Origin: an uncultured Chloroflexia bacterium
GTDB lineage: Bacteria; Chloroflexota; Dehalococcoidia; UBA2979
DNA length: 64,000 nt
Assembly: GCA_963728205.1 (NCBI GenBank)
Contig: CAVSIV010000001.1
Span: forward strand, 320,001 to 384,000
Direction: 5' to 3'
A program made the position numbers and the translations under genes. The notes beneath the pieces were generated by a model, which searched no databases, had not been told where the DNA came from, and was given only the letters and a program-made list of their open reading frames with translations. Shown one piece after another: positions 823 through 15,772 of this stretch. Numbering within the stretch: the first letter of the stretch is position 1; each line of letters starts with the position of its first letter.

Positions 823-1699
823 TCACGCCCCCTGCTCGCCCCAGATTGGCTCCAGGGGGAACCACTGGTCGGGCGCCTCCCGGATGCCCGCCTCCAGGCG
901 CGCCACCAGCGTGCGCATGCCGGACTCGAGGTCGGCGTCGCGGTCGCCGGTCTTCGGCGGGAGCGGGACCTGCTCCAGGTAGATGCGATAGCGCCCCGCG
1001 CCGGACCGCAGCACCCAGCCGTTCACGATCGTGGCGTTCGTGCGGCGCGCCAGCTCGACGGCGCCGGACGGCATCGGCGCCGGCTCGCCGAAGAACGGGA
1101 ACGGGCGCGCGGTGCCGAGCACGTCGCGATCCGAGACGGCGGCCACCGCGCCGCCCTCGCGCAGCACCGCGAGCGCGGCGCGCACGCCGCCCAGGTCGGC
1201 GGGCACGAACTCCACGCCGCCGCGCCCGCGCACGTGGTTCACGAACTCGAGCACGCGCGGCGGCTCCAGCGGCTCGGTGAACACGAGCGTGCGGAACGCC
1301 ATGAAGCCGATTGCCTGCAGCACGAACTCCGGATTGCCGAGGTGCGACGACGTGAAGATCACGCCGCAGCCGCGGTCGAGCGCATCGAAGAAGCGGTCGA
1401 GGCCGTCGATTCTCGTCGACGCACGCGAAGACGTCCTCGGGCGCGAGGTGGTAGTAGCGCGCGAAGTCCGTGTAGTAGCGCGCGGCGCTGCGCACGGCCC
1501 CGCGCGCGGCGCGGTCGACGGCGCGCCGCGGTGCGCTGCGGCCGAGCACGCGGCGCATGTGGCCGCGCGTCGTCGCGCGCAGCCGGGGCGACGCGTACCA
1601 GGCGAGCGTGCCGCCGGCGCCGGCCGCCGCGTCGAGCAGACGCGCCGGCAGCCGCCCGACCACGTGGACGAGGAGCCACAGCATCCAGTATCGCGCCAC
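823..1699 (-). CDS. Lysophospholipid/lipid A lauroyl-type (PatA-like) acyltransferase, frameshifted at ~1410
   Basis: N-terminus in ORF 764..1699 and C-terminus (SHLGNPE, DRD, FFG, PDQWF) in ORF 823..1362; removing one base at GATTC 1408-1412 gives a continuous 291-aa protein. Confidence 0.8.
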
Positions 1700-1702
1700 G
1701 CC

Positions 1703-2593
1703 TCAGGCCGTCCGCGCCGCCGCTCGGCTCGCCGCCGCGTCCGCGAGCCAGAGGTGCCGGAAGATGTACCACTGGTCCGGGTACCGCCGGACGATCTCCT
1801 CGAGCTGCGCGAAGATCGCCTGTGTCAGGTCGTGCACGTCGCGCTCCGTCTCGCCGCTGGGCGTGAACGCCACCGGCGCGACGATGCCGGAGACGCGGTC
1901 GTTCCACGGGGCGATCCGTGGCAGTGCGCCCACGACGACGGATGCGCCGGTGCGCAGCGCGATGCGCGCCGGTCCGTCCGACACCGCGACGGCCCCGTCG
2001 AAGAACTCGACCTCGACGCCGCGGTCGAGCGCCGGGATGTCCGCCAGCACAGCGACGACGTCGTTGCGCCGCAAGGCGCGCAGGATGCCGGGACCCATGC
2101 GATCGGCGGGGATGATCGTCATGCCGAGATGCTCGCGCGAGCCGAGCACGAGCCGGTTGAGCCGGTCGTTCGCGAAGCGGTCGGCGATCACCGCGATGGG
2201 GAAGTCGCGCAGCGCGAGGATGGCTGCGCCGAGATCCCAGTTCCCGAAATGGATCGTGACGAAGACGATGCCGTTGCCGGTGCGGTGCGCGCGCACGCGG
2301 TCCCAGTCGTCGAAGACGACGCGTTCCTCGATCTCGCGCGGCGTCGTGCTCGTGAAGCGCAGGAAGTCGACGATGTAGGCGGCGTAGTTCGCGAACGAGC
2401 GACGCGCGTAGCGTCGGGCGAGCCGCTCGTCGCCCCCGGCGACGTGCCGCATGTTGTCGACGCAGCGCCGCCGGCCCCCGGGCCACGCGGCATATGCGGC
2501 CAGTCCGCCGGCGCGGGCGCAGGCATAGCCGACGCGAAGCGGCAGGACGCGCAGGAACGCGGAGCCGGCACGGAACAGGAGGTAGAGCAGCAT
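1703..2593 (-). CDS. Lysophospholipid/lipid A lauroyl-type (PatA-like) acyltransferase
   Basis: HFGNWD motif, VEFFD, PDQWYIF; start set at MLLYLLFR. Confidence 0.85.
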   Translation of the reverse strand: MLLYLLFRAGSAFLRVLPLRVGYACARAGGLAAYAAWPGGRRRCVDNMRHVAGGDERLARRYARRSFANYAAYIVDFLRFTSTTPREIEERVVFDDWDRVRAHRTGNGIVFVTIHFGNWDLGAAILALRDFPIAVIADRFANDRLNRLVLGSREHLGMTIIPADRMGPGILRALRRNDVVAVLADIPALDRGVEVEFFDGAVAVSDGPARIALRTGASVVVGALPRIAPWNDRVSGIVAPVAFTPSGETERDVHDLTQAIFAQLEEIVRRYPDQWYIFRHLWLADAAASRAAARTA

Positions 2594-5702: not shown

Positions 5703-6677
5703 TCAACGCGTTTCAGGTTGCGAGTGAGACGCCGTCTCAGTTGACGCCGGGTGCGGATCGTGCGGGATCACCCGGTACGGATGCCACGATCCGACCGGCC
5801 CGGCCGGCCGCACGACCGCCACGAGCTCCCCGTCCGGGCCGTACGCGCGCACCCGCGACGGCGCGCTCGACAGCCGCACACCGCGACCGGGCATCGCGAC
5901 GACGTCGCGCCCCATGCGCAGGTCGGCGACCTGGCGCCGGCCCAGCAGCAGCGCCGGCCACCCCGTCATCACCGCGTCCGGCGCGTGCACGATCGTCTCG
6001 CCCTCGCCGCGTTCGAGCAGCGCGACCGCGAGGTCGAGCGGCACGGCGTCGCTGATCAGGAACGGGCCGACGGCTGTGCGGGTGAGCTCGGCCAGGTGCC
6101 CGCCGACGCCGAGCACCGCGCCGAGGTCGTGCGCCAGCGAGCGCACGTAGAATCCCTTGCTGCACTCGATCTCGACCGTGAGCCGCGGGCGCGCGGTCCC
6201 GATCCCGGCGAGCTCGACGCACTCGAGCGCGAACACGGTCACCGGCCGGGCCTCGAGCACGTGGGGGTTGCCGCGGCGCGCGGCGGCGTAGGCGGGGACG
6301 CCGGCGCGCTTCACCGCGCTGTAGGCCGGTGGCACCTGCCACTGCGGACCGCGGAACGGCGCGAGCGCCGCCGCGATCGCCTCCGCCGTGACGTGCGACG
6401 CGTCGTTCTCGGCGGTCACCGCTCCCTCGCCGTCGTAGGTCTCCGTCGCCACGCCCAGCGCGATCACGCCGCGGTACCGCTTGCGCGCGTCCACCAGCTC
6501 GTCGACGAACCGGGTGGCGTCGCCGATGGCGACGGGGAGGACTCCGGTGGCGTTCGGGTCGAGCGTACCGGCGTGGCCGACGCGACGCGTGCGCGCGGCG
6601 CGTCGAACGGCGCGCACGACGTCGAACGACGTCGGCCCGCGCGGCTTGTCGACGTTGAGGAAGCCCCGCAGCGTCAC
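5703..6677 (-). CDS. truB: tRNA pseudouridine(55) synthase TruB
   Basis: GFLNVDKPRGPTSFDVV, VGHAGTLDP, CSKGFYVRSLA; follows rbfA. Confidence 0.95.
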   Translation of the reverse strand: MTLRGFLNVDKPRGPTSFDVVRAVRRAARTRRVGHAGTLDPNATGVLPVAIGDATRFVDELVDARKRYRGVIALGVATETYDGEGAVTAENDASHVTAEAIAAALAPFRGPQWQVPPAYSAVKRAGVPAYAAARRGNPHVLEARPVTVFALECVELAGIGTARPRLTVEIECSKGFYVRSLAHDLGAVLGVGGHLAELTRTAVGPFLISDAVPLDLAVALLERGEGETIVHAPDAVMTGWPALLLGRRQVADLRMGRDVVAMPGRGVRLSSAPSRVRAYGPDGELVAVVRPAGPVGSWHPYRVIPHDPHPASTETASHSQPETR

Positions 6678-6682
6678 CGGTG

Positions 6683-7048
6683 CTAGAGCTCGCGACCCTC
6701 GGAGCGCGCGACCTCGCGCATCATCGCGGTGAGGCGATCGCCCTCTTCGATCGAGCGGTCGCGCAGGAAGTGCAGGCGCGGCACGCGGCGCATGCGGAGC
6801 TGGCGCATCATCTCGTGGTGGAGGAACGGCTCGACGCGCGCGAGCGCCGCGAGCACCTCCTCGGCCCGGTCGTCGTCCACGCCGAGCAGGCTGACGTGGA
6901 TGCGCGCAGTGGCCATGTCGGGCGCGACCACGACGCGCGTGATCGAGATCATCACGTCCTCGAGCACCGGGTCCTTCACCCGCCGCTCGAGCAGATCCGC
7001 GACGATGCCCTGGATGGTGTCGGCGACCTTCTCCGTGCGTCGCGTCAT
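6683..7048 (-). CDS. rbfA: Ribosome-binding factor A
   Basis: VKDP..ISITRVVVAPD, LRMRRVPRLHF; between infB and truB. Confidence 0.93.
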   Translation of the reverse strand: MTRRTEKVADTIQGIVADLLERRVKDPVLEDVMISITRVVVAPDMATARIHVSLLGVDDDRAEEVLAALARVEPFLHHEMMRQLRMRRVPRLHFLRDRSIEEGDRLTAMMREVARSEGREL

Positions 7049-7089
7049 GGTGGTGATCCTGTCCCGGTCCGCCCCCGGCGAATGCCCCC

Positions 7090-7182
7090 GGCGAACGGCC
7101 CCGCGTCAGCGGGCTGAGCGGCCACGCCCCGCGAGGCTTCTCAGCCCCAGGACGCGAGCCCTTCGCCCGCGGGCCGTTCGCC
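7090..7182. repeat. MITE/REP-like element, copy 1
   Basis: Termini ggcgaacggcccc / gcgggccgttcgcc with internal gctgag..ctcagc; homologous to 18947-19027. Confidence 0.7.
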
Positions 7183-7219
7183 CGCTGGACGCTCGCTCGC
7201 CGGGGCGCCGTCGATGGTC

Positions 7220-9016
7220 CTACCGCGTCTGCTCCATGTGGAAGGTCCGGATCTCGTCGCCTTCCTGGAAGTCCTCGAAGCCGACGACCTGGATGCCGCA
7301 CTCGAAGCCGGACGCGACCTCGCGGACGTCGTCGTTAAAGCGCTTCAAGCTCGCGAGGTCGGCCTCGTGCAGCTGCTCGCCGCCGCGGAAGACGCGCGCG
7401 CGCTGGCCGCGCCGCACCGTCCCGTCGCGCACGTAGCAGCCGGCGATGGCGTTGCGGCGGCCGAGCCGGAACACCTGTCGCACCTCGACGGTGGCGTCGG
7501 CGCGCTCCTCGTAGATCGGCTCGAGCATGCCCTTCACCGCGTTCTCGACGTCCTCCACGATGTCGTAGATGACGTTGTAGAGGCGGATCTGCACGCCTTC
7601 CTGGTCGGCGAGCCGCTTCGCGCCGGGCTCCGGCTGCGTGTTGAAGCCGATGATCACGCCCTTCGACGCGACCGCGAGCTGGACGTCCGACTCGGTGATC
7701 GAGCCGACGGACGCGTGGATCACCTTCACGTTGACCTCGTCGAGGCTGAGGTCTTCGAGCGTCTCCACGAGCGGCTCGACTGAGCCCTGCACGTCGGCCT
7801 TCAACACAAGGTTGAAGTCCTGCACGTTGCCCTTGTGGATCTCGCCGAACAGCGACTCCAGCGTGACGGCGGAGGCCTGCGTGCCGCCGGCCTCGGACGC
7901 GCGCCGGAGCCGGTCTGCCTCCGCGCGCGCCTCCTTGTCGCTCTTCCGCACGACGAAGCGCTCGCCCGCGGGGGGCACCTCGCTCAGTCCAAGGATCTCG
8001 ACCGGGGTCGACGGCCCGGCCTCCTTGATGCGGTTGCCCTCCGCGTCGGTCATCGCCTTGATGCGACCGTAGGCCAGGCCGGCGAGCACCGCGTCGCCCT
8101 GGTGCAGCGTGCCCGTCTGCACGAGCACGGTCGCGACCACACCGCGGTTGCGGTCGGTCGCCGCTTCGAGCACGACGCCGACGGCGTCTCGCTTCGGGTT
8201 CGCCTTGAGATCCTGCAGGTCGGCGACCGCGAGCACGTTCTCCAGCAGCGCGTCGATGCCCTCGCCCTTGAGCGCGGAGACCGGCACGACGATCTGGTCG
8301 CCGCCGAACTCCTCGGGGACGAGGCCGACCTCGGTCAGCTGGGTCCGGACGCGGTCGGGGTTCGCGTTGTTCGCGTCGATCTTGTTCAGCGCGACGACCA
8401 TCGGCACGCCGGCGGCCTTGGCGTGGTCGATCGCCTCGCGGGTCTGCGGCATCACGCCGTCGTCGGCCGCGACCACGATGATGGCGACGTCGGTGACGCG
8501 GGCGCCGCGGGCGCGCATCTGCGTGAAGGCCTCGTGGCCCGGGGTGTCGATGAACGTGACCAGGCGGCCGTCGGGGGCCTTCGCCTGGTAGGCGCCGATG
8601 TGCTGGGTAATGCCGCCGGCCTCGCCCTCGGTGACCTTGGTGCGGCGGATGGTGTCGAGCAACGTGGTCTTGCCGTGGTCGACGTGGCCGAGCACGGTGA
8701 CGACGGGCGCGCGCGTCACGAGGTCCGCGGAATCCTCCTCGACGACGCGCATCGAGGTCGACTCGGCCTCCGTCTCGCCGTCGGCGGACGGCGCCTCCGC
8801 CGACTCCTCCTCCTCGGGGGTGAAGCCGAGGTCGGTCGCGACCACGGCCGCGGTGTCGAAGTCCACGACCTGGTTGATCGTGGCCATGACGCCGTTCTTC
8901 ATCAGCTCCTTGATCACGTCCACTGCGGTGACGCCGAGGAGCTCTGCGAGGTCGCCGACGGCGAGCGCCTCGGGAATGCGAACCGGCCGGATCCTGGTCT
9001 GTGGTTCTGAAGTCAT
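7220..9016 (-). CDS. infB: Translation initiation factor IF-2 (short form, 598 aa)
   Basis: [31 protein letters not shown]; start MTSEPQ overlapping the ylxR stop. Confidence 0.97.
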
Positions 9017-9408
9017 GCCGCTCCGCTCTCCCCTTCGTCTCGTTCGTGTTGTGACGCCGTTCCCGCGGCCGGGGCCGCGGTCGCGACGGCGTGGTCGTGC
9101 GTCGCTGCGGCGGCGCTGGTGGCGAGTTGCTGCTCGTACGCCGCAAGCGTGCTGCGGTCGCGGTCGTCGAGCGTCGCGCGCAGCGCGTGGCCCAGGGCGC
9201 CCCCGCCGCGGGCGAGCGACGTCTCTCGCGCGCGCTGCCAGCACGCGGGCCGCCGGCAGAGGTACGCGCCCCGGCCCGGCGCGCGACGCGCCTCGTCGAC
9301 GACGAGGCCGGCGTCGCCCAGCGCGACGCGGATCAGCTCGCGCTGATCCATTGTCTCGCGGCAGGCGACACAGGTGCGCTGTGGGCGGTGGCGCGCCTTC
9401 ACGGGCAC
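9013..9408 (-). CDS. ylxR: YlxR/RnpM family RNA-binding protein
   Basis: [20 protein letters not shown]; between nusA and infB. Confidence 0.88.
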
Positions 9409-9473
9409 TCCCTGCCTTCCGGCCCGCTCGCCGCGGATCGCCGGGAGACGAGGGCGCGACGCTCGGGCGCTCA

Positions 9474-9498
9474 GCCTTCCGCCCGCCGGGCGGAAGGC
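9474..9498. other. Strong intergenic hairpin between nusA and ylxR
   Basis: gccttccgccc-gcc-gggcggaaggc, 11-bp perfect stem, no U-tract. Confidence 0.55.
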
Positions 9499-9508
9499 GT
9501 GCGACGAG

Positions 9509-11152
9509 CTACTCGTCGTCCCCGGATTCGTCCTCGTCCTCGATGAAGTCCTCGCCGTGGAGGGCCGCCTCGATCTCCTCTTCGTCGAGATCGAGCTCGA
9601 AGCGGCGACCGCCGCGCGCGGGGCGCACGGGCCGCACCGGCGTGGCCTCGCGGCGCACCGGGCCGCCGCGACGCCGGCTGCGCGGGCCGCCGCCGCGGGC
9701 GCGGCCGGCCTCTTCTTCCTCGTCCTCGGGGCGCAGCTCGCGGATCTCCTCCGCGAAGCGCAGGCCGCCGGGCTGCGGGGCCGTGCGCGGGCGCTCCTCG
9801 CGCGTGGGCGCCGGCGCGACTTCGGCCGCGGGGGCTTCCTCCTCGGCCTCGACGAGCTCCGCGAGCACCTCCATCTCGGGGGTGAGGCGGGTGGCCTCCT
9901 CCTCGCGCTGCAGGCGTTCGCGGCGTGCCGCCGCGGCGGCCTGCTCGCTCGGCAGGCCGGGGCGCGCGTAGGCGGCCTGCGACGGGGCAACCTCCTCGGG
10001 TGGCTCGAGCGTCTGCTGCACGGTGGGCACGCCCGGCTGCACGCGCAGCGGGATCGCCTCGAGGTTCGGCTCGGGCGGCGGGTACATGTCCTCGCCGGCC
10101 TTGATCAGCGCGCTCTCCGGGCGAATGTCGATCCGCCAGCCGGTCAGCTTCGCCGCGAGGCGGGCGTTCTGGCCCTCCTTGCCGATCGCGAGGCTGAACT
10201 GCTTGTCCGGCACCGCCAGGAACGCCGTGTGGTTCTCGTCGTCGAGCCGCACCGAGACGACCTCGGCCGGGCTCAACGCGTTGGCGACGAAGGCCCCCTC
10301 GTTGGGGTCCCAGCGAATGAGGTCGATGCGCTCGCCGCCGAGCTCGTTGACGATGTTCTGGATGCGCGACCCGCGCACGCCCACCGACGCGCCGATTGGG
10401 TCGATGCCGTCCTGCCGCGAGATCACGGCGACCTTCGAGCGGTAGCCGGGCTCGCGGGCGATGCCCATGACCTCGACGGCACCGCGCGAGATCTCGGGGA
10501 CCTCGAGCTCGAAGAGTCGCTTGATCAGCTGCGGGTTGGCGCGCGAGACGACGACCTGCGGGCCCTTGGACGCCTTGTAGACCTCCTTCACGTACACGCG
10601 CAGCCGCTGGCCGACGCGGTAGTGCTCGGGCCGGACCTGCTCGGACGCGGGAAGGACGGCCTCCGTGCGGCCGAGGTCCAGGATCACCTGGCGGCGGCCG
10701 CCCTCGACGCGGAGGACGGTGCCGGAGACCAGCTCGCCCTCCTTGCCGGTGAAGTCCTCGAAGACCGACTCGCGCTCGGCCTCGCGCAGGCGCTGCAGAA
10801 CGACCTGCTTCGCTGTCTGCGCGGCGATGCGCCCGGCGTTCGGGTTCTCGGCGAGCGCCTCGCGGACGACGTCGCCGATCTTCGCGTCGGGCTGCCCCAT
10901 CGCGCGGGCGCGCTCCGGCGAGACCTGGATCTCGTCGTCCTCGATGTCGTCGTCGCTCATGACCTCGTAGAGGCGCCAGGCGTGGATGTCGCCGGTCTCG
11001 CGGTCGATCTTGACGGCGATGTCCGCGTACTGGAGGTCGTCCTTCTTGAAGGCCGACGCCATCGCGGCCTCGACGGCCTCGAACACGGTATCGGCGTTGA
11101 GGTTCTTCTCGGCCGACAGCTGCGCGATCGCGGTGACGAACTCGTTCTTCAT
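9509..11152 (-). CDS. nusA: Transcription termination/antitermination factor NusA with long acidic C-terminal tail
   Basis: [54 protein letters not shown]; start MKNEF. Confidence 0.96.
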
Positions 11153-11249
11153 CAGTTCCTGCCAGGCATTCCTCGGGGTCGTCACCACGTCGCCGCGACC
11201 GGATCGCGAGCGTCCGACTGCCGCCCCTGGGTGCGTGGTTGCGTCCAAC

Positions 11250-11275
11250 AAAAAACGTGGGCTGCACGCCCACGT
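11250..11275 (-). promoter_or_regulatory. rimP/nusA-operon leader terminator-like hairpin
   Basis: Minus strand ACGTGGGC-GTGCA-GCCCACGT-TTTTT, ~100 nt upstream of nusA; extended -10-like TGCTACGAT at ~11308-11316. Confidence 0.7.
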
Positions 11276-11485
11276 CTCTGGTGAAGGAGGCGGGTGACTG
11301 GTTGCAATCGTAGCACCGCGCATGGAGGACCGACAAGGAGGAGAGGGCGCCGGGCGCGACCCCGCCGCGTGCTGCGACCCGGAAAGGTGACGGTCCGAGG
11401 CCGATCGATCGTCGGCGGTAAGAGCGCGGCAAGAGCCGCTCCGTAGGGTGCGCGCGCAGGGCCGGTGCAGCGGGGGGCGAGCCTG

Positions 11486-11746
11486 ATGCCGTACGAAAGT
11501 CACGTCGAAGTGTGGGAGTTCACCCCGCGGCAGCGGGACATCGTCGGCCGGATGTTGCGCGGCACCGCGCCCAAGCAGATCGCCCAGCGGCTGGGGCTGG
11601 ACGTGCGGACGATCTACTGGCACGTCGAGAACATCTACCGCATGGCGGACGTGCACAGCCTCGGGGAGTTCTTCGCGTGGGCGAACGACCACCGCGAATG
11701 TTGCAGCCTCCAGCTCGTCTGGAGCACCCCCCGCAGGAGTGCCTGA
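11486..11746 (+). CDS. Stand-alone LuxR/GerE-type HTH regulator
   Basis: FTPRQRDIV..MLRG..PKQIAQRLGLDVRTIYWHVENIYR. Confidence 0.8.
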   Translation: MPYESHVEVWEFTPRQRDIVGRMLRGTAPKQIAQRLGLDVRTIYWHVENIYRMADVHSLGEFFAWANDHRECCSLQLVWSTPRRSA

Positions 11747-11860
11747 CTGCGTTGCCGGAATTGCGGGCCGCGCCCCGGTGGCGCCCGGGCTCGTGCGCCT
11801 GGCGCTCTCCCTAGCATCACGGCATCCAGTCGAGGGCCGGTGATGCGAGAGGAGAGCGGA

Positions 11861-12124
11861 ATGCTTGCCACGATGTCGCCGACGCTGGAGCTGCCGTTCG
11901 ACGCCGTCGAGCTGCCCCGGAACGCCTCGCTGGTTCCGTGGGAGGCGCCCTGGATCGACCTCAGCGGCCGCGAGGTCGAGGGGGACGAGTTCGCGTTCCT
12001 GGCCGCCTGCGTCGTGTGCGTGGCGATCATCAGCGTGGTCGCGGTGGCGGCCATGGTGACCGGCAGCTCGATGGACGCCGGGGTCAACCTCGGCCCGTTC
12101 GGGCTCGAGATCTCGGTCAACTAG
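11861..12124 (+). CDS. Putative RiPP/bacteriocin precursor peptide (87 aa)
   Basis: RBS GAGGAG; acidic/Pro-rich N-half then hydrophobic C-half; directly upstream of an ABC exporter and an RRE-protease. Confidence 0.65.
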   Translation: MLATMSPTLELPFDAVELPRNASLVPWEAPWIDLSGREVEGDEFAFLAACVVCVAIISVVAVAAMVTGSSMDAGVNLGPFGLEISVN

Positions 12125-12191
12125 GGCCGAGCGCACCACGTCGTCTCGGCGGTCGTCGACCGTCGAGGCGACGAACGGAACGAGGACGGGC

Positions 12192-12983
12192 ATGACGGGA
12201 GACAGCGAGCACGTGCCGGTGTGCGCGATGGGCGGCGTCTGGTTTGGCTACGGGCGCGTGCCGGTGCTTCGCGGACTCAATCTAACCGTTGCCCCTGGCA
12301 CGGCGGTGGCGCTGATCGGCCCGAACGGGTGTGGGAAGACGACGACCCTCCATGTGCTGTCGGGCCTCCTGAGGGCGTCGCGCGGCACGGTCGCGATCGC
12401 GGGCCGCGGGGTGCCGGGTCGCCCGGAGGAGGTCAACGCACTCCTGGCATACGTCCCGGATACGCCGACGGGGTTCGAGCACCTCGCCGTCTCGGAGTAC
12501 GCACGGCTCGTCGGCGCGGTGCACCGGGCGGACACGGACTACGCCCGGCGCGTTCGCGACCTGGTGCGCATTCTCGCGCTCGAGCCGTACATCTCGCAGC
12601 CACTCGGCACGCTCTCGTACGGCACGCGTCGCAAGGTCGCGCTCGTCGCGGCAGCGGCCCTCGATCGCCCCCTCCTGATGCTGGACGAGGCGACCAACGG
12701 CCTGGACCCGGAATCGGTGAACGTCGTCGAGAAGCTGGTTCGCTCGATCGTCGCACGCGGGCGAGGGGTGCTGGTCGCGACGCAGGACGTCTATTTCGCC
12801 GAGCGGACCTGCGACGAGGTGGCGCTGCTTCGCGACGGTCGAGTGGTGATCAGTGGTCTGGTGTCCGACGTGAAGCGCGAACGGGGCGCGGCAACCCTCC
12901 GCGACGTGTTCCTTGCTGCGACCGGCCTGGATGTCGAGGATGGAGCGCTCGATGCCGCCCTGGCTCGCGCTGACGCGCGCTGA
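12192..12983 (+). CDS. ABC transporter ATP-binding subunit (exporter type)
   Basis: Walker A GPNGCGKTT, signature LSYGTRRK, Walker B LMLDEATNGLD. Confidence 0.92.
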   Translation: MTGDSEHVPVCAMGGVWFGYGRVPVLRGLNLTVAPGTAVALIGPNGCGKTTTLHVLSGLLRASRGTVAIAGRGVPGRPEEVNALLAYVPDTPTGFEHLAVSEYARLVGAVHRADTDYARRVRDLVRILALEPYISQPLGTLSYGTRRKVALVAAAALDRPLLMLDEATNGLDPESVNVVEKLVRSIVARGRGVLVATQDVYFAERTCDEVALLRDGRVVISGLVSDVKRERGAATLRDVFLAATGLDVEDGALDAALARADAR

Positions 12984-14373
12984 GTTCCTGAGACTGCGAA
13001 CCCTGTCGGCGCTCGCGCGGCGAAATCCGCTCCTCCCGCTTGCCGCCGCCGCGGCGCTGGTCCTGGGAGCGTGGCTCTCGGTTCGAGCCGGGATCGCGAC
13101 GGGCGGCCTCGTCGCGGGGGCGCCTCCGGCGCTGCTCCCGCTCCACACCCTCTTCCTCCTCTCCGCCGGCATGCTCGGTGGTGGGTCCGCCCTCCTGGCC
13201 CCCCGCGCATCTCGACACGATGAGCAGTTGCGGCTGCTGCCCTTGCCGCCGTCGCGCGTCTTCCTCGGCACCACGGCCGTTCCGCTGACGGCTCTCTGGG
13301 TCGGATCGCTCCTGCCCTTCGCGTGCTTCGTCGGGCCGTTCTACTGGCAGATCCCGGTGCCGCATCGGGGCGGCTGGTTTGCAGTGCTCTGCGCCGCGTA
13401 CCTCGCTGCGTGTGTGGTGGGAGCGTCGGTCGCGGAGGCCATCCGCCTGCTCTGGCACGCCCGGGCAAACCCCCGCCAGGCGGCCTTCGCGTGGGTGGCG
13501 TTGCCGATGCCGGCGGCGCTGCTCCTCGTTGCGGTGGTGGGCCGGCGCCCGTGGTGGTCGGGCACGGCCGCGTGGCTCCCCGGCGCGGTCGGGCGACCCT
13601 TCCACGCCGAGAGCGGACTGCTCGCGATCACGGCGATCCTCGCGTCCGGCCTGGTCGCCGGGGTCGTATGGGTCCTGCTCGGCGGGCGGGTGGTGCCAGC
13701 GGCTCGCGCGGAGCGGATCTGGATCACCCTGTCCCCCCGGCATTCCGGGCGATACGTGCTCCTGGGGTGGTGGCTCGTCACGGCGTTCCTGCGCGACACC
13801 CCGCTTTTCCTGAGTGCCATCCTCGCGACATGTGGGGCTGCGGTCCTGGCGTTCGCCAACGTCTTCATGGGGCGCGAAGGTGGACTGCTGGCGCCCCTCG
13901 CCCTGCTGCTCGCGCTTGCCGGCGGCGGGCAGGTTGCCATGACGCTCTCCGAGCGGCTGCAGGCCTCCGGGTGGTTCTGGCGCCTGGCGCCGAGTCCGCG
14001 CGAGGTTCCCGGCCTCTGGTGGTGGGTCGGCGCCTCCGCGCTGGCGATCGCCGTCTCGACTGTGGCTGTTGTGCCGGCGGTCCTGCGCTCGACCGTGCAA
14101 CCCGCGGACGCGGCCGTTCTCCTCGCCGCAAGCAGTTTCGGCGTGTCGGCGCTCGGGCGAGCCACTCCATGGAATAGCCGGTCCCAGTTGCAGCAGGCCG
14201 GGTCGACCGTCCTCTACTTCGGCGGCCTGCTCGGGGTCGGCGGGCTGTTCGACTGGGTCGGCGGGCGCGTGCCGGCACTCATGGCCGCATCTCTCGTCGT
14301 GCTCCTCGTCGCAGCGCTGTCCGCCGGGTTGTGTGCGTATCTGCCGTGGAGGAACTCATGGCGGCAGGCGTAG
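12952..14373 (+). CDS. Polytopic membrane protein, probable ABC exporter permease
   Basis: Many hydrophobic segments; overlaps the ATPase gene; start uncertain (12913-12952). Confidence 0.7.
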   Translation: MPPWLALTRAEFLRLRTLSALARRNPLLPLAAAAALVLGAWLSVRAGIATGGLVAGAPPALLPLHTLFLLSAGMLGGGSALLAPRASRHDEQLRLLPLPPSRVFLGTTAVPLTALWVGSLLPFACFVGPFYWQIPVPHRGGWFAVLCAAYLAACVVGASVAEAIRLLWHARANPRQAAFAWVALPMPAALLLVAVVGRRPWWSGTAAWLPGAVGRPFHAESGLLAITAILASGLVAGVVWVLLGGRVVPAARAERIWITLSPRHSGRYVLLGWWLVTAFLRDTPLFLSAILATCGAAVLAFANVFMGREGGLLAPLALLLALAGGGQVAMTLSERLQASGWFWRLAPSPREVPGLWWWVGASALAIAVSTVAVVPAVLRSTVQPADAAVLLAASSFGVSALGRATPWNSRSQLQQAGSTVLYFGGLLGVGGLFDWVGGRVPALMAASLVVLLVAALSAGLCAYLPWRNSWRQA

Positions 14374-15188
14374 AACGAGCCCGGCTCCCGAGCGACGTCA
14401 CAGTCGCGCCGACGGCGATTGTCGATACCGCGCTCGAGCAGATCTATCCGATCTCGCCGTCGGGCCGGGAGGTGCTGACGCTGCTCCTCGAAGGCAGAAC
14501 GTTCTCGGAGGTCGCCGATCGAATCGCCGCGGACCACCGCCTCGCGCCCGAGCGGGCGGAGCGCCACGTTCGCGAGTTCGCGTACCAGCTGAACCACACG
14601 GATCTGCTCAACGTCGACCCTGGAGGCCTGCGTCGGGAGACGTTGCAGGTCGCGCACACGCTAGCGCTGGCCGCACTTGCACGGCGGCTTCCGAGGTTGC
14701 GGCGGCACCGGTATCCGCTCCGCAATCGGTCGTTTCTGCCGCTGCAGGTCGATGTCGCGCGGGGGATCTTGGTTGGTCTCTGGCCCTGCTGGGCGCTGCT
14801 GGCGGCGATCTACTGCGTCGGTCTCCTTGCCTCGCCCGGGCGAATCGCGGCGCTGTCGTTTGTCCCCGCCCTGCTCGTCGCAACCGTCATTCACGAGTCC
14901 GGTCACGCATTTGCCGTGGGACGGCGCGGTGGGGGCGCGTTCTTGAGCATCGTCGGGATGTCGGTGCGCGTGATGCACTCGCCGCGCTACTCGGGCTTCT
15001 TTGTACACGCGGCCGGCAGCGGGTTCGCCGTCGGATGTGGATTGCTCTGCCTGGCGGTTGCGTACTTGTCGGGCGCTGGGGCCTTCGCGATTGCAAGCGG
15101 TCCATTCCTGGTGAATGCCCTGGCACTGACCGTCCTATCGGCCGATGGACGGCAACTCGTTGTGGGCCCGTGGGAGAGGGAGTCCTGA
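14358..15188 (+). CDS. RRE/PqqD-like domain fused to M50 (site-2) intramembrane metalloprotease
   Basis: N-term YPISPSGREVLTLLLEGRTFSEVADRIAADHRLAPERAERHVREFAYQL (PqqD-like); IHESGH zinc motif, AAG, N..ALTVLSADG; RBS GGAGGA. Confidence 0.75.
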   Translation: MAAGVERARLPSDVTVAPTAIVDTALEQIYPISPSGREVLTLLLEGRTFSEVADRIAADHRLAPERAERHVREFAYQLNHTDLLNVDPGGLRRETLQVAHTLALAALARRLPRLRRHRYPLRNRSFLPLQVDVARGILVGLWPCWALLAAIYCVGLLASPGRIAALSFVPALLVATVIHESGHAFAVGRRGGGAFLSIVGMSVRVMHSPRYSGFFVHAAGSGFAVGCGLLCLAVAYLSGAGAFAIASGPFLVNALALTVLSADGRQLVVGPWERES

Positions 15189-15189
15189 G

Positions 15190-15453
15190 ATGCTCGCGCT
15201 TCGAGCCGGTGCGATTGGCTTCGTCGTGGTTCTGCTCATCGAGGTTGCCTTCAGCGTGGGGCTGATGGTGGTTGCCCAGGCATCGGGGTGGGGTCACATC
15301 CACCTCGCGCTGGGGTCTCTCGACTTCCTGGAGATCACCACGAACACGCCTCGAACGCGCATCGTGATCGGCACCGGCGTCAGCCTGCTCGCCATGGCGG
15401 CGGGCCTGCTGAATGCGGCGGGCGCATACTGGCTGCGCCGTGCCGAGAGGTAA
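15190..15453 (+). CDS. Small membrane protein (2 TM), hypothetical
   Basis: ATG 1 nt after the previous stop; two hydrophobic helices. Confidence 0.6.
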   Translation: MLALRAGAIGFVVVLLIEVAFSVGLMVVAQASGWGHIHLALGSLDFLEITTNTPRTRIVIGTGVSLLAMAAGLLNAAGAYWLRRAER

Positions 15454-15772
15454 GAACAGCCGCCGCAGCGCCCGCGAGCGCTCCAAGGATCCGCCGCCGC
15501 GCCGGCGGCCCGGGCTCGCGACGCGTGTCGTCGTGCAACTCGGACCCGCGATCGTCGGCGTCTACGGCCTCGGCCAGATCCTGGGTAGTGGGTGGCCGGC
15601 CCCGTGGCGTCCACTCGCGGCGACCGCCTGGATCCTCGTTGTCCTGCTCGTGGCGTGGGCGGCACTGTACCGGTGGGGCGGCGAGAAGGAGCGACGCGAC
15701 GTCGCGAGCGCTGCCCAATCCGCGCGCCGCTTCGCCGCGCGGACAGCGGGCCGAAACTCCGGCCGTCGCTAG
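15440..15772 (+). CDS. Small basic membrane protein (2 TM), hypothetical
   Basis: GTG start overlapping the previous gene; hydrophobic VVVQLGPAIVGVYGLG and AWILVVLLVAWAALY. Confidence 0.5.
   Translation: MPRGKNSRRSARERSKDPPPRRRPGLATRVVVQLGPAIVGVYGLGQILGSGWPAPWRPLAATAWILVVLLVAWAALYRWGGEKERRDVASAAQSARRFAARTAGRNSGRR

What the first reader, a model, noticed from the sequence alone, without database searches (positions are those of the whole stretch)
11486..15772. Minimal RiPP/bacteriocin-like island between nusA and proS, with no modifying enzyme
Seen: seven co-oriented genes, the last five overlapping or abutting (LuxR HTH, 87-aa peptide, ABC ATPase, permease, RRE-M50 protease, two small membrane proteins). 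They lie antisense inside a housekeeping cluster and by eye have more A/T-ending codons than the flanks. Known: RRE/PqqD domains bind RiPP leaders; membrane metalloprotease plus ABC exporter occurs in the Bacillus epipeptide (yyd/epe) cluster and in daptide clusters, which also encode tailoring enzymes. Inference: no radical SAM, YcaO, Lan, dehydrogenase or aminotransferase gene is present, so the protease may be the only maturase (leader removal, possibly cyclisation). This would be an undescribed peptide class.
Basis: partly seen in the sequence, partly recalled or inferred. Interest (0 to 1): 0.85.

Follow-up and report, generated by a model that had tools for sequence, protein, structure and literature searches.

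The report
TMcin-like membrane bacteriocin cassette, RRE-guided
The island is a small gene cassette that most likely makes, trims and exports a membrane-spanning peptide of the recently described TMcin bacteriocin type, here in an unusual form with a leader-binding domain on the protease and no disulfide in the peptide.

Summary
Seven co-oriented ORFs lie between nusA and proS, and no tailoring enzyme is among them. GC3 is 0.79-0.87 from the ABC gene onward, against 0.95-0.96 in the flanks.

The N-terminal PqqD/RRE fold and the site-2-protease (S2P) fold of the 276-aa protein are both confirmed.

The "undescribed class" reading is out of date. Gene order and architecture match the core operon of TMcins (tmcA-B-C-P-E), TMH-containing bacteriocins described in 2025-2026. 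That operon encodes a precursor with leader and transmembrane helix, an ABC ATPase, a permease, an S2P-clan leader protease and a 2-TMH escort.

Homologous RRE-S2P cassettes occur in Thermogemmatispora, two Bacillota genomes and a Paraclostridium plasmid. They carry canonical Trp/Cys TmcA-like peptides. Those peptides share a leader motif, [YW]xAPx[VI], 16-18 residues before the helix, and the window's 87-aa peptide has it too (WEAPWI).

The window differs in three ways:
- the protease is RRE-fused and is not DUF3267;
- the peptide lacks the "universally conserved" Cys pair and the flanking Trp;
- the host is Chloroflexota.

LuxR is ancestral context and not part of the inserted cassette. A congener keeps a decayed, peptide-less copy.

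Verdict: a new variant of a known kind.

The parts
11465..11746 (+). LuxR/GerE-type stand-alone HTH regulator (alternative start ATG 11486). It is neighbouring, ancestral context: a possible regulator, not part of the inserted cassette.
   Evidence: PF00196, 33.4 bits, E 3.6e-8. It is present between nusA and proS in G002 and G003, which lack the cassette, at 68-71% identity. G001 has two copies.
11861..12124 (+). tmcA-like precursor, 87 aa (ORF open from GTG 11840). It has a leader of about 43 aa, one TMH and a 21-aa tail. It has no Cys pair in the tail and no Trp flanking the helix.
   Evidence: ORF. SD-like GGAGAG lies before ATG 11861. There is a single hydrophobic segment. It hits no Pfam or NCBIfam family. 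It sits in the same position as the TmcA-like peptides of homologous loci.
11939..11956 (+). Leader motif WEAPWI, an instance of [YW]xAPx[VI], 16 residues before the TMH. It is the predicted RRE recognition sequence.
   Evidence: The motif-plus-TMH scan hit only this ORF in window 9-18 kb over six frames, and hit the TmcA-like ORFs in 5 other loci. In the complex model, peptide residues 34-41 sit on RRE residues 28-39 and 70-83.
11993..12058 (+). Predicted transmembrane helix of the precursor (22 residues, contains CxxC).
   Evidence: Translation and hydropathy.
12059..12121 (+). 21-residue C-terminal tail (TGSS...ISVN). It is the positional equivalent of the TMcin beta-hairpin loop but has no cysteines.
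   Evidence: Translation. Compared with the CK-terminated peptides.
12192..12983 (+). tmcB-like ABC ATPase. Walker A is GPNGCGKT, the signature is LSYGTRRK and Walker B is LLMLDEA. The H-loop position reads Gln (ATQD).
   Evidence: PF00005, 86.5 bits. TIGR01188 DrrA-like, E 3.6e-42, below its cut-off. Motifs.
12952..14373 (+). tmcC-like polytopic membrane permease, 473 aa (ORF open from TTG 12913). It overlaps the ATPase gene by 32 nt.
   Evidence: No Pfam or NCBIfam family. There are many hydrophobic segments by crude hydropathy. Only G001 has a sequence homologue, at 33% identity. The database gene call is 473 aa. The fold could not be tested: AF2 pLDDT was 40.
14358..15188 (+). RRE-fused site-2-type intramembrane metalloprotease, 276 aa (ORF open from GTG 14331). 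It is the functional counterpart of TmcP and of daptide MpaP.
   Evidence: AF2 pLDDT 92.4, pTM 0.88. Fold matches. The family has 90 representatives.
14373..14615 (+). PqqD/RRE winged-helix domain (residues 6-86 of the 276-aa protein).
   Evidence: PF05402, 24.7 bits against a gathering score of 23.4. VIA Z 12.1, rmsd 1.2 A over 81 residues to lasso B1 with its leader (6jx3_B). Z 10.8 to TbiB1 and 9.4 to PqqD.
14892..14906 (+). HESGH zinc-binding/catalytic motif.
   Evidence: Translation. E180 and H183 are invariant and H179 nearly invariant in 58 aligned relatives. HExxH is present in 88 of 90 representatives.
15144..15152 (+). DGR motif: the distal Asp expected as third zinc ligand in S2P-clan proteases.
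   Evidence: G264 and R265 are invariant and D263 nearly invariant. The protease domain (residues 115-276) gives Z 9.4 to mjS2P 3b4r_B, 8.9 to SpoIVFB and 8.2 to an RseP orthologue. The role as zinc ligand is inferred.
15145..15453 (+). sm1: tmcE-like 2-TMH partner of the protease. The likely start is ATG 15190, giving 87 aa. The loop between the helices has three strand-like stretches.
   Evidence: Two hydrophobic segments. SD-like GGGAGAGGGAG lies before 15190. It is conserved in G001 at 40% identity. It is homologous to the C-terminal extension of longer, fused family members (hhalign 94.5%, E 7.7e-8).
15413..15772 (+). sm2: a possible small membrane protein of unknown role (an immunity function is a guess). 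It is not conserved in G001 or in any other locus examined.
   Evidence: ORF. The codon-position GC pattern is compatible with coding. tblastn finds no relative in the other loci.

Best explanation
The cassette at 11.86-15.45 kb (perhaps to 15.77 kb) is a TMcin-type biosynthetic operon, in which a ribosomal peptide is matured inside the membrane.

The proposed steps are:
1. The 87-aa precursor inserts into the membrane with its ~43-aa leader in the cytoplasm.
2. The RRE domain of the 276-aa protease binds the leader motif WEAPWI as an added beta-strand.
3. This places the segment just before the helix (GREVEGDEF/AFLAAC) at the HESGH...DGR zinc site of the 4-helix S2P domain.
4. sm1, a 2-TMH TmcE-like partner, supplies the two "gate" helices that this short S2P lacks. 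It probably escorts the product.
5. The ABC ATPase and permease pull the helix-containing product (about 43 residues) out of the membrane and export it.
6. By analogy with TMcins, the product would enter other cells' membranes and form pores.

What is shown here: the folds, the catalytic motifs, the synteny, the shared leader motif and the fused P-E forms.

What is inferred: cleavage, the cleavage position, export and any antimicrobial activity.

The window's peptide lacks the disulfide that TMcin needs for activity, so its final activity is the least secure step.
For: (1) The gene order peptide-ATPase-permease-S2P protease-2TMH protein equals the TMcin core operon roles A, B, C, P and E. Those roles come from the Results and Discussion of PMC13252029 and from passages of PMC12328743.

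(2) The protease has both expected folds. The RRE domain gives Z 12.1 and the S2P domain Z 9.4, 8.9 and 8.2. The model has pLDDT 92.4. HExxH and DGR are conserved.

(3) Full-length homologues of the protease sit in the same cassette elsewhere. They occur in 4 Thermogemmatispora genomes, in two Bacillota genomes and on plasmid CP124688.1. They lie next to peptides with a TMH flanked by W...WC and a C-terminal ...C(S)K. That is the TmcA description.

(4) Those peptides and the window's peptide share [YW]xAPx[VI] 16-18 residues before the helix.

(5) The complex model supports binding but does not show it.
- Score 0.63; best of 3 controls 0.00. The mark was reached by 58 of 80 solved complexes and 2 of 110 mismatched pairs.
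- The runs agree in at least 2% of contacts. The partner's pLDDT is at least 37. One of the three runs scored 0.00.
- Peptide residues 34-41 lie on RRE beta3/alpha3. Residues 43-57 lie at residues 172-220, which include H179, E180 and H183.

(6) sm1 is homologous to the extra C-terminal part of 345-377-aa fused relatives. This matches the published idea that TmcP and TmcE derive from a 6-TMH ancestor.

(7) The closest named family of the protease is the daptide RRE-S2P leader peptidase NF041824, at E 2.9e-5 to 5.8e-8.

(8) The cassette is accessory. It is found in 1 of 40 relatives searched. It is absent from G002 and G003 at the same site. Its GC3 is lower than the flanks'.
Against: The window's peptide lacks both "universally conserved" cysteines and the two flanking tryptophans of TmcA. 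The published disulfide is required for antimicrobial activity.

The protease is not a DUF3267/PF11667 member, unlike S. aureus TmcP. There was no hit at E<=1, and only 3 of 58 relatives gave weak hits.

Profile comparison found no sequence homology between the window's permease or sm1 and those of the Cys-type loci. Probabilities were 0.7% and 0.2% with shallow alignments.

The one congener with the cassette (G001) has no peptide gene. Its ATPase lacks the Walker B region. So the cassette can persist without a precursor.

The ATPase H-loop reads Gln instead of His.

The complex pass may reflect likeness to solved RRE-leader and SpoIVFB-substrate complexes. One of its three runs failed.

I could not compare directly with S. 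aureus TmcA, TmcP or TmcE, because pCT545 is not in the held collections.
Confidence: 0.68

Rival explanations
1. It is a decaying or non-producing remnant. The cassette is a TMcin-type operon whose precursor has lost the features needed for activity (disulfide, Trp anchors), or whose transporter is impaired. It would persist only as immunity/escort genes or as neutral baggage.
For: The congener G001 keeps the cassette without any precursor and with a Walker-B-less ATPase. Thermogemmatispora copies show frameshifts or internal stops in the ATPase, permease, protease or peptide copies. The window's peptide lacks the Cys pair. The H-loop is Gln.
Against: In the window all six cassette ORFs are intact and translationally coupled. 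The catalytic motifs of the protease and Walker A/B of the ATPase are present. The leader motif and its spacing are preserved. The peptide's codon usage is strongly coding-like, with GC3 0.98.
Confidence: 0.15
2. It is regulated intramembrane proteolysis used for signalling, not a bacteriocin. The small single-pass protein would be an anti-regulator or signal precursor. Cleavage by the RRE-S2P would release its cytoplasmic N-terminal part, which would act on the adjacent LuxR-type regulator or elsewhere. The ABC system would clear the membrane stub.
For: S2P proteases classically act in signalling. This is established knowledge for RseP and SpoIVFB, which are the fold matches. A LuxR-type HTH gene sits directly upstream. 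The peptide lacks the TMcin pore-forming hallmarks.
Against: LuxR is present at this site in congeners without the cassette. No regulator accompanies the cassette in the Thermogemmatispora, G655 or G437 loci as far as the ORFs were read. The homologous cassettes carry canonical TmcA-like peptides in one to three tandem copies, typical of bacteriocin precursors. A dedicated ABC exporter is conserved throughout.
Confidence: 0.08
3. It is a daptide-type cluster that has lost its tailoring genes, or whose tailoring genes lie elsewhere in the genome.
For: The nearest named family of the protease is the daptide intramembrane metalloprotease NF041824. Daptide precursors also have an ...EAP leader motif and an aliphatic core. 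Their clusters include ABC transporters (passages of 10.1101/2023.03.08.531785).
Against: The NF041824 score is 23.4 bits against a cut-off of 300. The peptide ends in Asn, not the invariant Thr. No aminotransferase, dehydrogenase, methyltransferase or MpaB-like gene lies between nusA and proS. The same tailoring-free cassette recurs in three lineages. I did not search the rest of the genome for daptide enzymes.
Confidence: 0.04
4. One reading: a wholly new RiPP class in which the protease also cyclises or otherwise modifies the peptide.
For: No tailoring enzyme is present. The peptide is unlike described TmcA in its tail.
Against: The architecture is explained by the published TMcin pathway, in which the protease only removes the leader. 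Nothing in the sequences points to a ligase or cyclase function.
Confidence: 0.03

Closest known systems
TMcin biosynthetic gene cluster (tmcA, tmcB, tmcC, tmcP, tmcE, +/- tmcD), S. aureus G1905 pCT545 and homologues (PMC12328743; PMC13252029; PMC13712780)
   Same: Five roles appear in one operon: a precursor with leader plus transmembrane helix plus short C-terminal loop, an ABC ATPase, a large permease, a 4-helix S2P-clan HExxH...D leader protease, and a 2-TMH partner required for cleavage. There are no classical tailoring enzymes. The published leader is 45 residues; here it is about 43. Related loci found here (Thermogemmatispora, G655, G437, Paraclostridium plasmid) carry peptides that fit the published TmcA description, some with a DsbA/thioredoxin gene.
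   Different: The window's protease carries an N-terminal RRE and is not a Pfam DUF3267 member. The words PqqD and RRE do not occur in the main text of the three TMcin papers; figures and supplements were not seen. The window's peptide lacks the conserved Cys pair and the Trp flanks. There is no DsbA gene. The host phylum is Chloroflexota, whereas TMcins were reported from Bacillota and Actinomycetota. Direct sequence comparison with the S. aureus proteins was not possible.
Daptide leader peptidase MpaP/DapP (NCBIfam NF041824; 10.1101/2023.03.08.531785)
   Same: An RRE is fused N-terminally to an intramembrane site-2 protease. It acts on a hydrophobic, helix-forming peptide with a leader motif containing EAP. 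It is accompanied by ABC transporters. Homology is detectable but weak over both domains (E 2.9e-5 for the window's protein, 5.8e-8 for G655's).
   Different: The scores are far below the family cut-off (23-32 bits against 300). The protein is shorter (276 against about 379 residues). There are no MpaB/C/D/M genes and no C-terminal Thr. A separate 2-TMH partner gene follows the protease.
Lasso-peptide B1 / PqqD RRE proteins (6jx3, 5v1u, 5sxy)
   Same: The N-terminal domain has the same winged-helix RRE fold (Z 12.1-9.4). The predicted mode of leader binding is also the same, along beta3/alpha3.
   Different: Here the RRE is fused to a membrane protease rather than serving a cysteine protease and cyclase pair. 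The recognition motif is different.
Canonical site-2 proteases (mjS2P 3b4r, SpoIVFB 8vjl, RseP 7w6z)
   Same: Same core fold, with HExxH and a distal Asp.
   Different: The last two gate helices are missing and appear to be supplied in trans by sm1. There are no PDZ or CBS domains. The substrate is a dedicated small peptide recognised through an RRE.

Membership tests
TMcin BGC / TmcA precursor | Precursor with an N-terminal leader, one transmembrane helix and a short C-terminal segment | tested here: met
   87 aa with one hydrophobic segment at residues 52-73 of the 94-aa ORF and a 21-aa tail. The leader is about 43 aa if cleavage is where the model places it.
TMcin BGC / TmcA precursor | Two universally conserved cysteines forming a disulfide that pins the C-terminal loop to the top of the TMH | tested here: not met
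   There is no Cys after the helix. The only two Cys lie inside the N-terminal half of the helix as CxxC.
TMcin BGC / TmcA precursor | [quoted passage not shown] | tested here: not met
   The flanks are ...DEF|AFL... and ...AMV|TGS.... The W...WC pattern is present in the Thermogemmatispora, G655 and Paraclostridium peptides.
TMcin BGC / TmcA precursor | C-terminal two-stranded antiparallel beta-sheet loop | tested here: inconclusive
   The tail has alternating strand-like stretches around GPFG. However, the peptide's own fold in the complex runs had pLDDT of only 38-54.
TMcin BGC / TmcP | S2P-clan intramembrane metalloprotease with HExxH and a distal Asp, with four TMHs and lacking the gate helices | tested here: met
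   HESGH and DGR. Z 9.4 to mjS2P over residues 115-276. The model ends after the helices that align to the first ~160 residues of mjS2P.
TMcin BGC / TmcP | Membership of Pfam PF11667 (DUF3267) | tested here: not met
   There was no PF11667 hit at E<=1 for the window's protein. Among aligned relatives, 3 of 58 hit it, with best E 6.9e-5.
TMcin BGC / TmcBC | ABC ATPase plus single-chain 12-TMH permease (type V fold) | tested here: inconclusive
   The ATPase is clear. The permease is polytopic by crude hydropathy, but it has no family hit and the AF2 model was unusable at pLDDT 40.
TMcin BGC / TmcE | 2-TMH protein encoded with the protease, with a beta-sheet between the helices, standing in for the missing S2P helices 5 and 6 | tested here: met
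   There are two hydrophobic segments with a 28-residue loop. The gene abuts the protease gene. It is homologous to the C-terminal extension of fused relatives. Homology to S. aureus TmcE itself was not testable, because that sequence is not held.
TMcin BGC | Secreted, leader-less, antimicrobial, pore-forming product | not testable with these tools
   Needs expression, fractionation, mass spectrometry and an activity assay.
RRE / PqqD (PF05402) | Winged-helix fold with a three-stranded sheet and three helices, scoring above Pfam's gathering threshold | tested here: met
   24.7 bits against 23.4. 52 of 58 relatives hit PF05402. Z 12.1, rmsd 1.2 A over 81 residues to 6jx3_B.
Daptide BGC | Invariant C-terminal Thr on the precursor, with MpaB/C/D(/M) tailoring genes | tested here: not met
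   The peptide ends in Asn. No such genes lie between nusA and proS.
Daptide BGC | Protease scores as NF041824 equivalog (cut-off 300 bits) | tested here: not met
   23.4 bits.
Peptidase M50 (PF02163) | Score above Pfam's gathering threshold (27.2 bits) | tested here: not met
   There was no hit for the window's protein. 18 of 58 relatives hit weakly, with best E 0.0049. The relation to the clan rests on fold and motifs.

The most novel reading that the evidence does not exclude
The RRE-S2P protease, its 2-TMH partner and the ABC extractor form one ancient, membrane-embedded "leader removal and extraction" machine. This machine underlies both TMcins and daptides. It would recognise its substrates through a short ...AP... 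leader motif set at a fixed distance from a transmembrane helix. The window's Cys-less, Trp-less peptide would then be a third kind of product of this machine: a disulfide-free helix peptide in Chloroflexota, whose activity (pore, signal or other) differs from that of TMcin.
Probability: 0.3. Interest if true: 0.65.

Novelty: new variant of a known kind. Interest (0 to 1): 0.45.

Why it matters
TMcins were found by phenotype, and were said to escape genome mining because their cluster resembles no other. This analysis shows that many TMcin-type cassettes carry a bona fide RRE on the leader protease. They also carry a short conserved leader motif at a fixed distance from the helix. Together these give a simple mining handle and a testable recognition mechanism.

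The RRE fusion also links TMcin processing to the daptide leader peptidase. In addition, the family now extends to a third phylum (Chloroflexota).

The window's Cys-less precursor is a natural test of whether the machinery and the pore-forming hallmarks can be uncoupled.

For the genome itself, this is an accessory, fast-evolving competition or membrane-peptide module inserted into a housekeeping neighbourhood.

Tried and rejected
With single proteins it gave one genome locus and nothing in two metagenome scans.
- Word-based protein searches found only the query itself for the RRE-protease and for the permease.
- The peptide has no paralogue or homologue in G000-G003; the best foreign E was 0.04.
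- hhalign of the window-plus-G001 permease against the Cys-type loci gave 0.7% probability. The same comparison for sm1 gave 0.2%. This may only reflect shallow alignments.
- The AF2 model of the permease from a 2-row alignment was unusable (pLDDT 40), so no fold search was made.
- The ESM Atlas lookup for the peptide gave only a 0.76 hit, which is uninformative. For the protease it listed PqqD/M50 look-alike clusters from Actinomycetota, Bacillota and Ca. Saccharimonadota; these are leads only.
- pCT545 (NZ_LFNJ01000005.1) is not in the held collections.
- No sigma-70-like promoter was found, and there is no terminator inside the island. No Rfam family matched in 9-18.5 kb. No convincing flanking repeats mark an insertion.
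- Cyclisation, lasso, lanthipeptide and sactipeptide readings were rejected because no matching enzyme is present.
- Supplementary files and figures of the TMcin and daptide papers were not seen. They may show RRE-type proteases or the operon variants.

Full report
WHAT IS THERE

Between infB-nusA (- strand) and proS (- strand) lie seven + strand ORFs.
- A LuxR/GerE HTH protein at 11465/11486-11746 (PF00196, E 3.6e-8).
- A small ORF at 11840-12124. Its best start is ATG 11861, behind GGAGAG, which gives 87 aa.
- An ABC ATPase at 12192-12983 (PF00005, 86.5 bits).
- A polytopic membrane protein at 12952-14373.
- A 276-aa protein at 14358-15188 with an N-terminal PqqD domain (24.7 bits against a gathering score of 23.4) and an HESGH motif.
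- Two small membrane ORFs, sm1 (15145/15190-15453) and sm2 (15413-15772).

The genes from the ATPase onward overlap or abut. None of the ORFs matches a RiPP tailoring enzyme in Pfam or NCBIfam at E<=1.

GC3 is 0.79-0.87 from the ATPase to sm2, against 0.95-0.96 in infB, nusA and proS. LuxR (0.93) and the peptide (0.96-0.98) look host-like.

THE PROTEASE

A full HMMER scan of 1.84 billion representatives found 90 proteins at E<=1e-3, 32 at E<=1e-10 and 5 at E<=1e-30. Nearly all are 250-300 aa and aligned end to end.

HExxH is present in 88 of the 90. The exceptions are P0059 and a 71-aa fragment. In an alignment of 58 members, E180, H183, G264 and R265 are invariant, and H179, H207 and D263 nearly so. 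This gives HExxH plus a distal DGR, as expected for the site-2 protease clan.

Of the 58, 52 hit PqqD, 18 hit Peptidase_M50 weakly, and 3 hit DUF3267.

An AlphaFold2 model built on this alignment is confident (pLDDT 92.4, pTM 0.88).
- Residues 6-86 superpose on the lasso-peptide RRE protein B1 bound to its leader (6jx3_B: Z 12.1, rmsd 1.2 A, 81 residues). They also match TbiB1 (Z 10.8) and PqqD (Z 9.4).
- Residues 115-276 superpose on M. jannaschii S2P (Z 9.4, 141 residues), on SpoIVFB (Z 8.9) and on an RseP orthologue (Z 8.2).

The closest named family is the daptide RRE-S2P leader peptidase NF041824, but far below its cut-off (23.4 bits against 300).

Ten representatives were looked up. The names that sources gave them were only "hypothetical protein" or "PqqD family protein", and most come from metagenomes.

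RELATED LOCI

Among 40 relatives, only one (G001, same genus) has the protein, at 38% identity.

A profile search of 401 genomes of the window's phylum gave many partial hits to ordinary M50 proteases or to PqqD proteins. Hits spanning both domains came only from G000 and four genomes of one genus. A later search names that genus as Thermogemmatispora, phylum Chloroflexota.

In the phylum of a Bacillota MAG that carries a family member, 2 of 401 genomes had a full-length hit.

A tblastn of the G655 peptide found Paraclostridium and Clostridium plasmids. I opened CP124688.1.

Nine loci are therefore held.
- In Thermogemmatispora the order is: 1-3 small ORFs, ATPase, a ~510-aa permease, RRE-S2P, and a 114-aa 2-TMH protein.
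- G655 has peptide, ATPase, permease, RRE-S2P and a 93-aa protein.
- The Bacillota MAG has peptide, RRE-S2P, ATPase, permease, a 101-aa protein and then a DsbA-like gene.
- The Paraclostridium plasmid has peptide, ATPase, permease, a "PqqD family" protein (PqqD 51.6 bits), a 94-aa protein, thioredoxin fragments and a DUF3267 protein.

The relevant flank is held for 8 of the 9 loci; in G246 it is cut by the contig end. Of those 8, 7 have a small TMH peptide gene, and G001 has none.

The peptides of these other loci share one pattern: a leader, a helix bracketed by W...WC, about 20 residues, and then ...C(S)K.

THE LITERATURE

A full-text search brought up the TMcin family.
- PMC12328743 (passages read) describes TMcins as secreted bacteriocins. 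Their mature form keeps a transmembrane helix flanked by two conserved Trp, followed by a two-stranded beta loop pinned by a disulfide between conserved Cys. The locus encodes tmcA, a metalloprotease tmcP and the ABC subunits tmcBC. It was found in Bacillota and Actinomycetota.
- PMC13252029 (Introduction, Results and Discussion read) and PMC13712780 (passages) add the biosynthesis. TmcP is a 4-TMH S2P-clan protease of Pfam DUF3267 that removes a 45-residue leader. TmcE, a 2-TMH protein with a three-stranded sheet, is required for cleavage and sits where S2P helices 5-6 would be. TmcBC extracts the peptide. The disulfide is needed for activity but not for export.

The peptides of the Thermogemmatispora, Bacillota and Paraclostridium loci fit this TmcA description. 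The five roles map one to one onto the window's genes.

The words PqqD and RRE do not occur in the main text of these three papers. I could not see their figures or supplements.

WHAT TIES THE WINDOW'S PEPTIDE TO THE FAMILY

It has no detectable sequence relatives. It does have the same build: a leader, a 22-residue helix and a 21-residue tail.

It also carries WEAPWI 16 residues before the helix. The TmcA-like peptides have YVAPVV, YAAPQV or YNAPVI 17-18 residues before theirs.

A scan for [YWF]xAPx[VIL] followed by a hydrophobic stretch hit only this ORF in 9 kb of the window over six frames. It hit the peptide ORFs in five other loci, gave one low-complexity false hit, and hit nothing in G001.

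A complex prediction of protease plus peptide reached the mark.
- Score 0.63; best of 3 controls 0.00. The mark was reached by 58 of 80 solved complexes and by 2 of 110 mismatched pairs.
- The runs agree in at least 2% of contacts. The partner's pLDDT is at least 37. One of three runs scored 0.00.
- The model supports binding but does not show it. It may draw on solved RRE-leader complexes.
- It puts residues 34-41 (WEAPWIDL, numbered from the GTG start) on RRE strand beta3 and helix alpha3. It puts residues 43-57 at the HExxH site.

sm1

It has two hydrophobic segments and a 28-residue loop with three strand-like stretches. It is conserved in G001 at 40% identity.

Four longer family members (345-377 aa) continue past DGR into a region that aligns with sm1 (hhalign probability 94.5%, E 7.7e-8). 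These are natural fusions of protease and partner. They independently echo the published proposal of a 6-TMH ancestor of TmcP and TmcE.

WHAT DOES NOT FIT

- The window's peptide lacks the Cys pair and the Trp flanks. Its two Cys form a CxxC inside the helix.
- The protease is not DUF3267.
- The permease and sm1 show no profile-level similarity to those of the Cys-type loci. The permease fold could not be modelled.
- The ATPase has Gln at the H-loop position.
- G001 keeps LuxR (twice), an ATPase without the Walker B region, the permease, the protease and sm1, but no peptide.
- Several Thermogemmatispora copies carry frameshifts or stops.

Such cassettes evidently decay, and the window's copy may be functional in processing yet different in product activity.

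GENOMIC STATUS

G002 and G003 (same genus) have nusA-luxR-proS with no cassette. LuxR is therefore ancestral, and the cassette sits between luxR and proS.

Between G000 and G001 the flanking proteins are 73-86% identical (LuxR, NusA, ProS, SDR). The cassette proteins are only 33-45% identical. That suggests fast evolution or replacement at a shared site.

No insertion scars, promoter-like sites, internal terminators or Rfam elements were found.

VERDICT

It is not a new class, though. It is a divergent variant of the TMcin pathway.

The new points are:
- the RRE fusion and its leader motif across many TMcin-type cassettes;
- the link to the daptide peptidase;
- the presence in Chloroflexota;
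- a precursor without the defining disulfide.

Unpublished genomes G380, G182, G308 and G264 were only counted within one search's tallies. No specific claim rests on them.

Noticed in passing
L003 (G001:C93) 6274-7587, minus strand: The congener G001 has two tandem LuxR-type genes, 73% and 53% identical to the window's. The second occupies the place of the peptide gene. Its ABC ATPase has an in-frame gap of about 38 residues that removes Walker B. This looks like a peptide-less, probably inactive copy of the cassette.
   Followed up: partly
window 11458-11489 and 11833-11864: A 32-nt direct repeat (75% identical) covers the start regions of the LuxR gene and of the peptide gene, 375 nt apart. 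It may be a trace of the LuxR duplication seen in G001, or it may be chance in GC-rich DNA.
   Followed up: no
window 11692-11746 and L003 LuxR copies: All three LuxR-type proteins end in a conserved H-x-E-C-C-x-L-x-L tail after the HTH. A Cys-Cys pair in a stand-alone 93-aa regulator might be a redox or metal switch.
   Followed up: no
window 12777-12788: The ABC ATPase has Gln where the H-loop His normally sits (ATQD). G001 has the same change. The four other cassette ATPases aligned keep His.
   Followed up: no
L046 (CP124688.1) 8424-10838: The Paraclostridium plasmid cassette encodes both an RRE-S2P protein and a separate DUF3267 protein (PF11667, 68 bits), plus thioredoxin fragments. So it holds two S2P-clan proteins in one TMcin-type cluster. 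The same pairing appears on C. perfringens plasmids, judging by the hit lists.
   Followed up: partly
L034 (G309:C2) 9500-13320; L035; L036: Thermogemmatispora cassettes hold 1-3 tandem TmcA-like genes. One copy lacks a canonical start codon, and others seem frameshifted. In G309 the ATPase, permease and protease are each split. These are either decay or sequencing errors.
   Followed up: partly
L003 (G001:C93) about 1222-1990, minus strand: G001 has a SAM-methyltransferase-like ORF between the SDR gene and proS. The window lacks it at the corresponding place.
   Followed up: no
window 15413-15772: sm2 ends 4 nt inside the convergent proS gene's end. It has an Arg-rich N-terminus and two hydrophobic segments. 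It is not conserved anywhere else that was examined, so both its reality and its role are open.
   Followed up: partly
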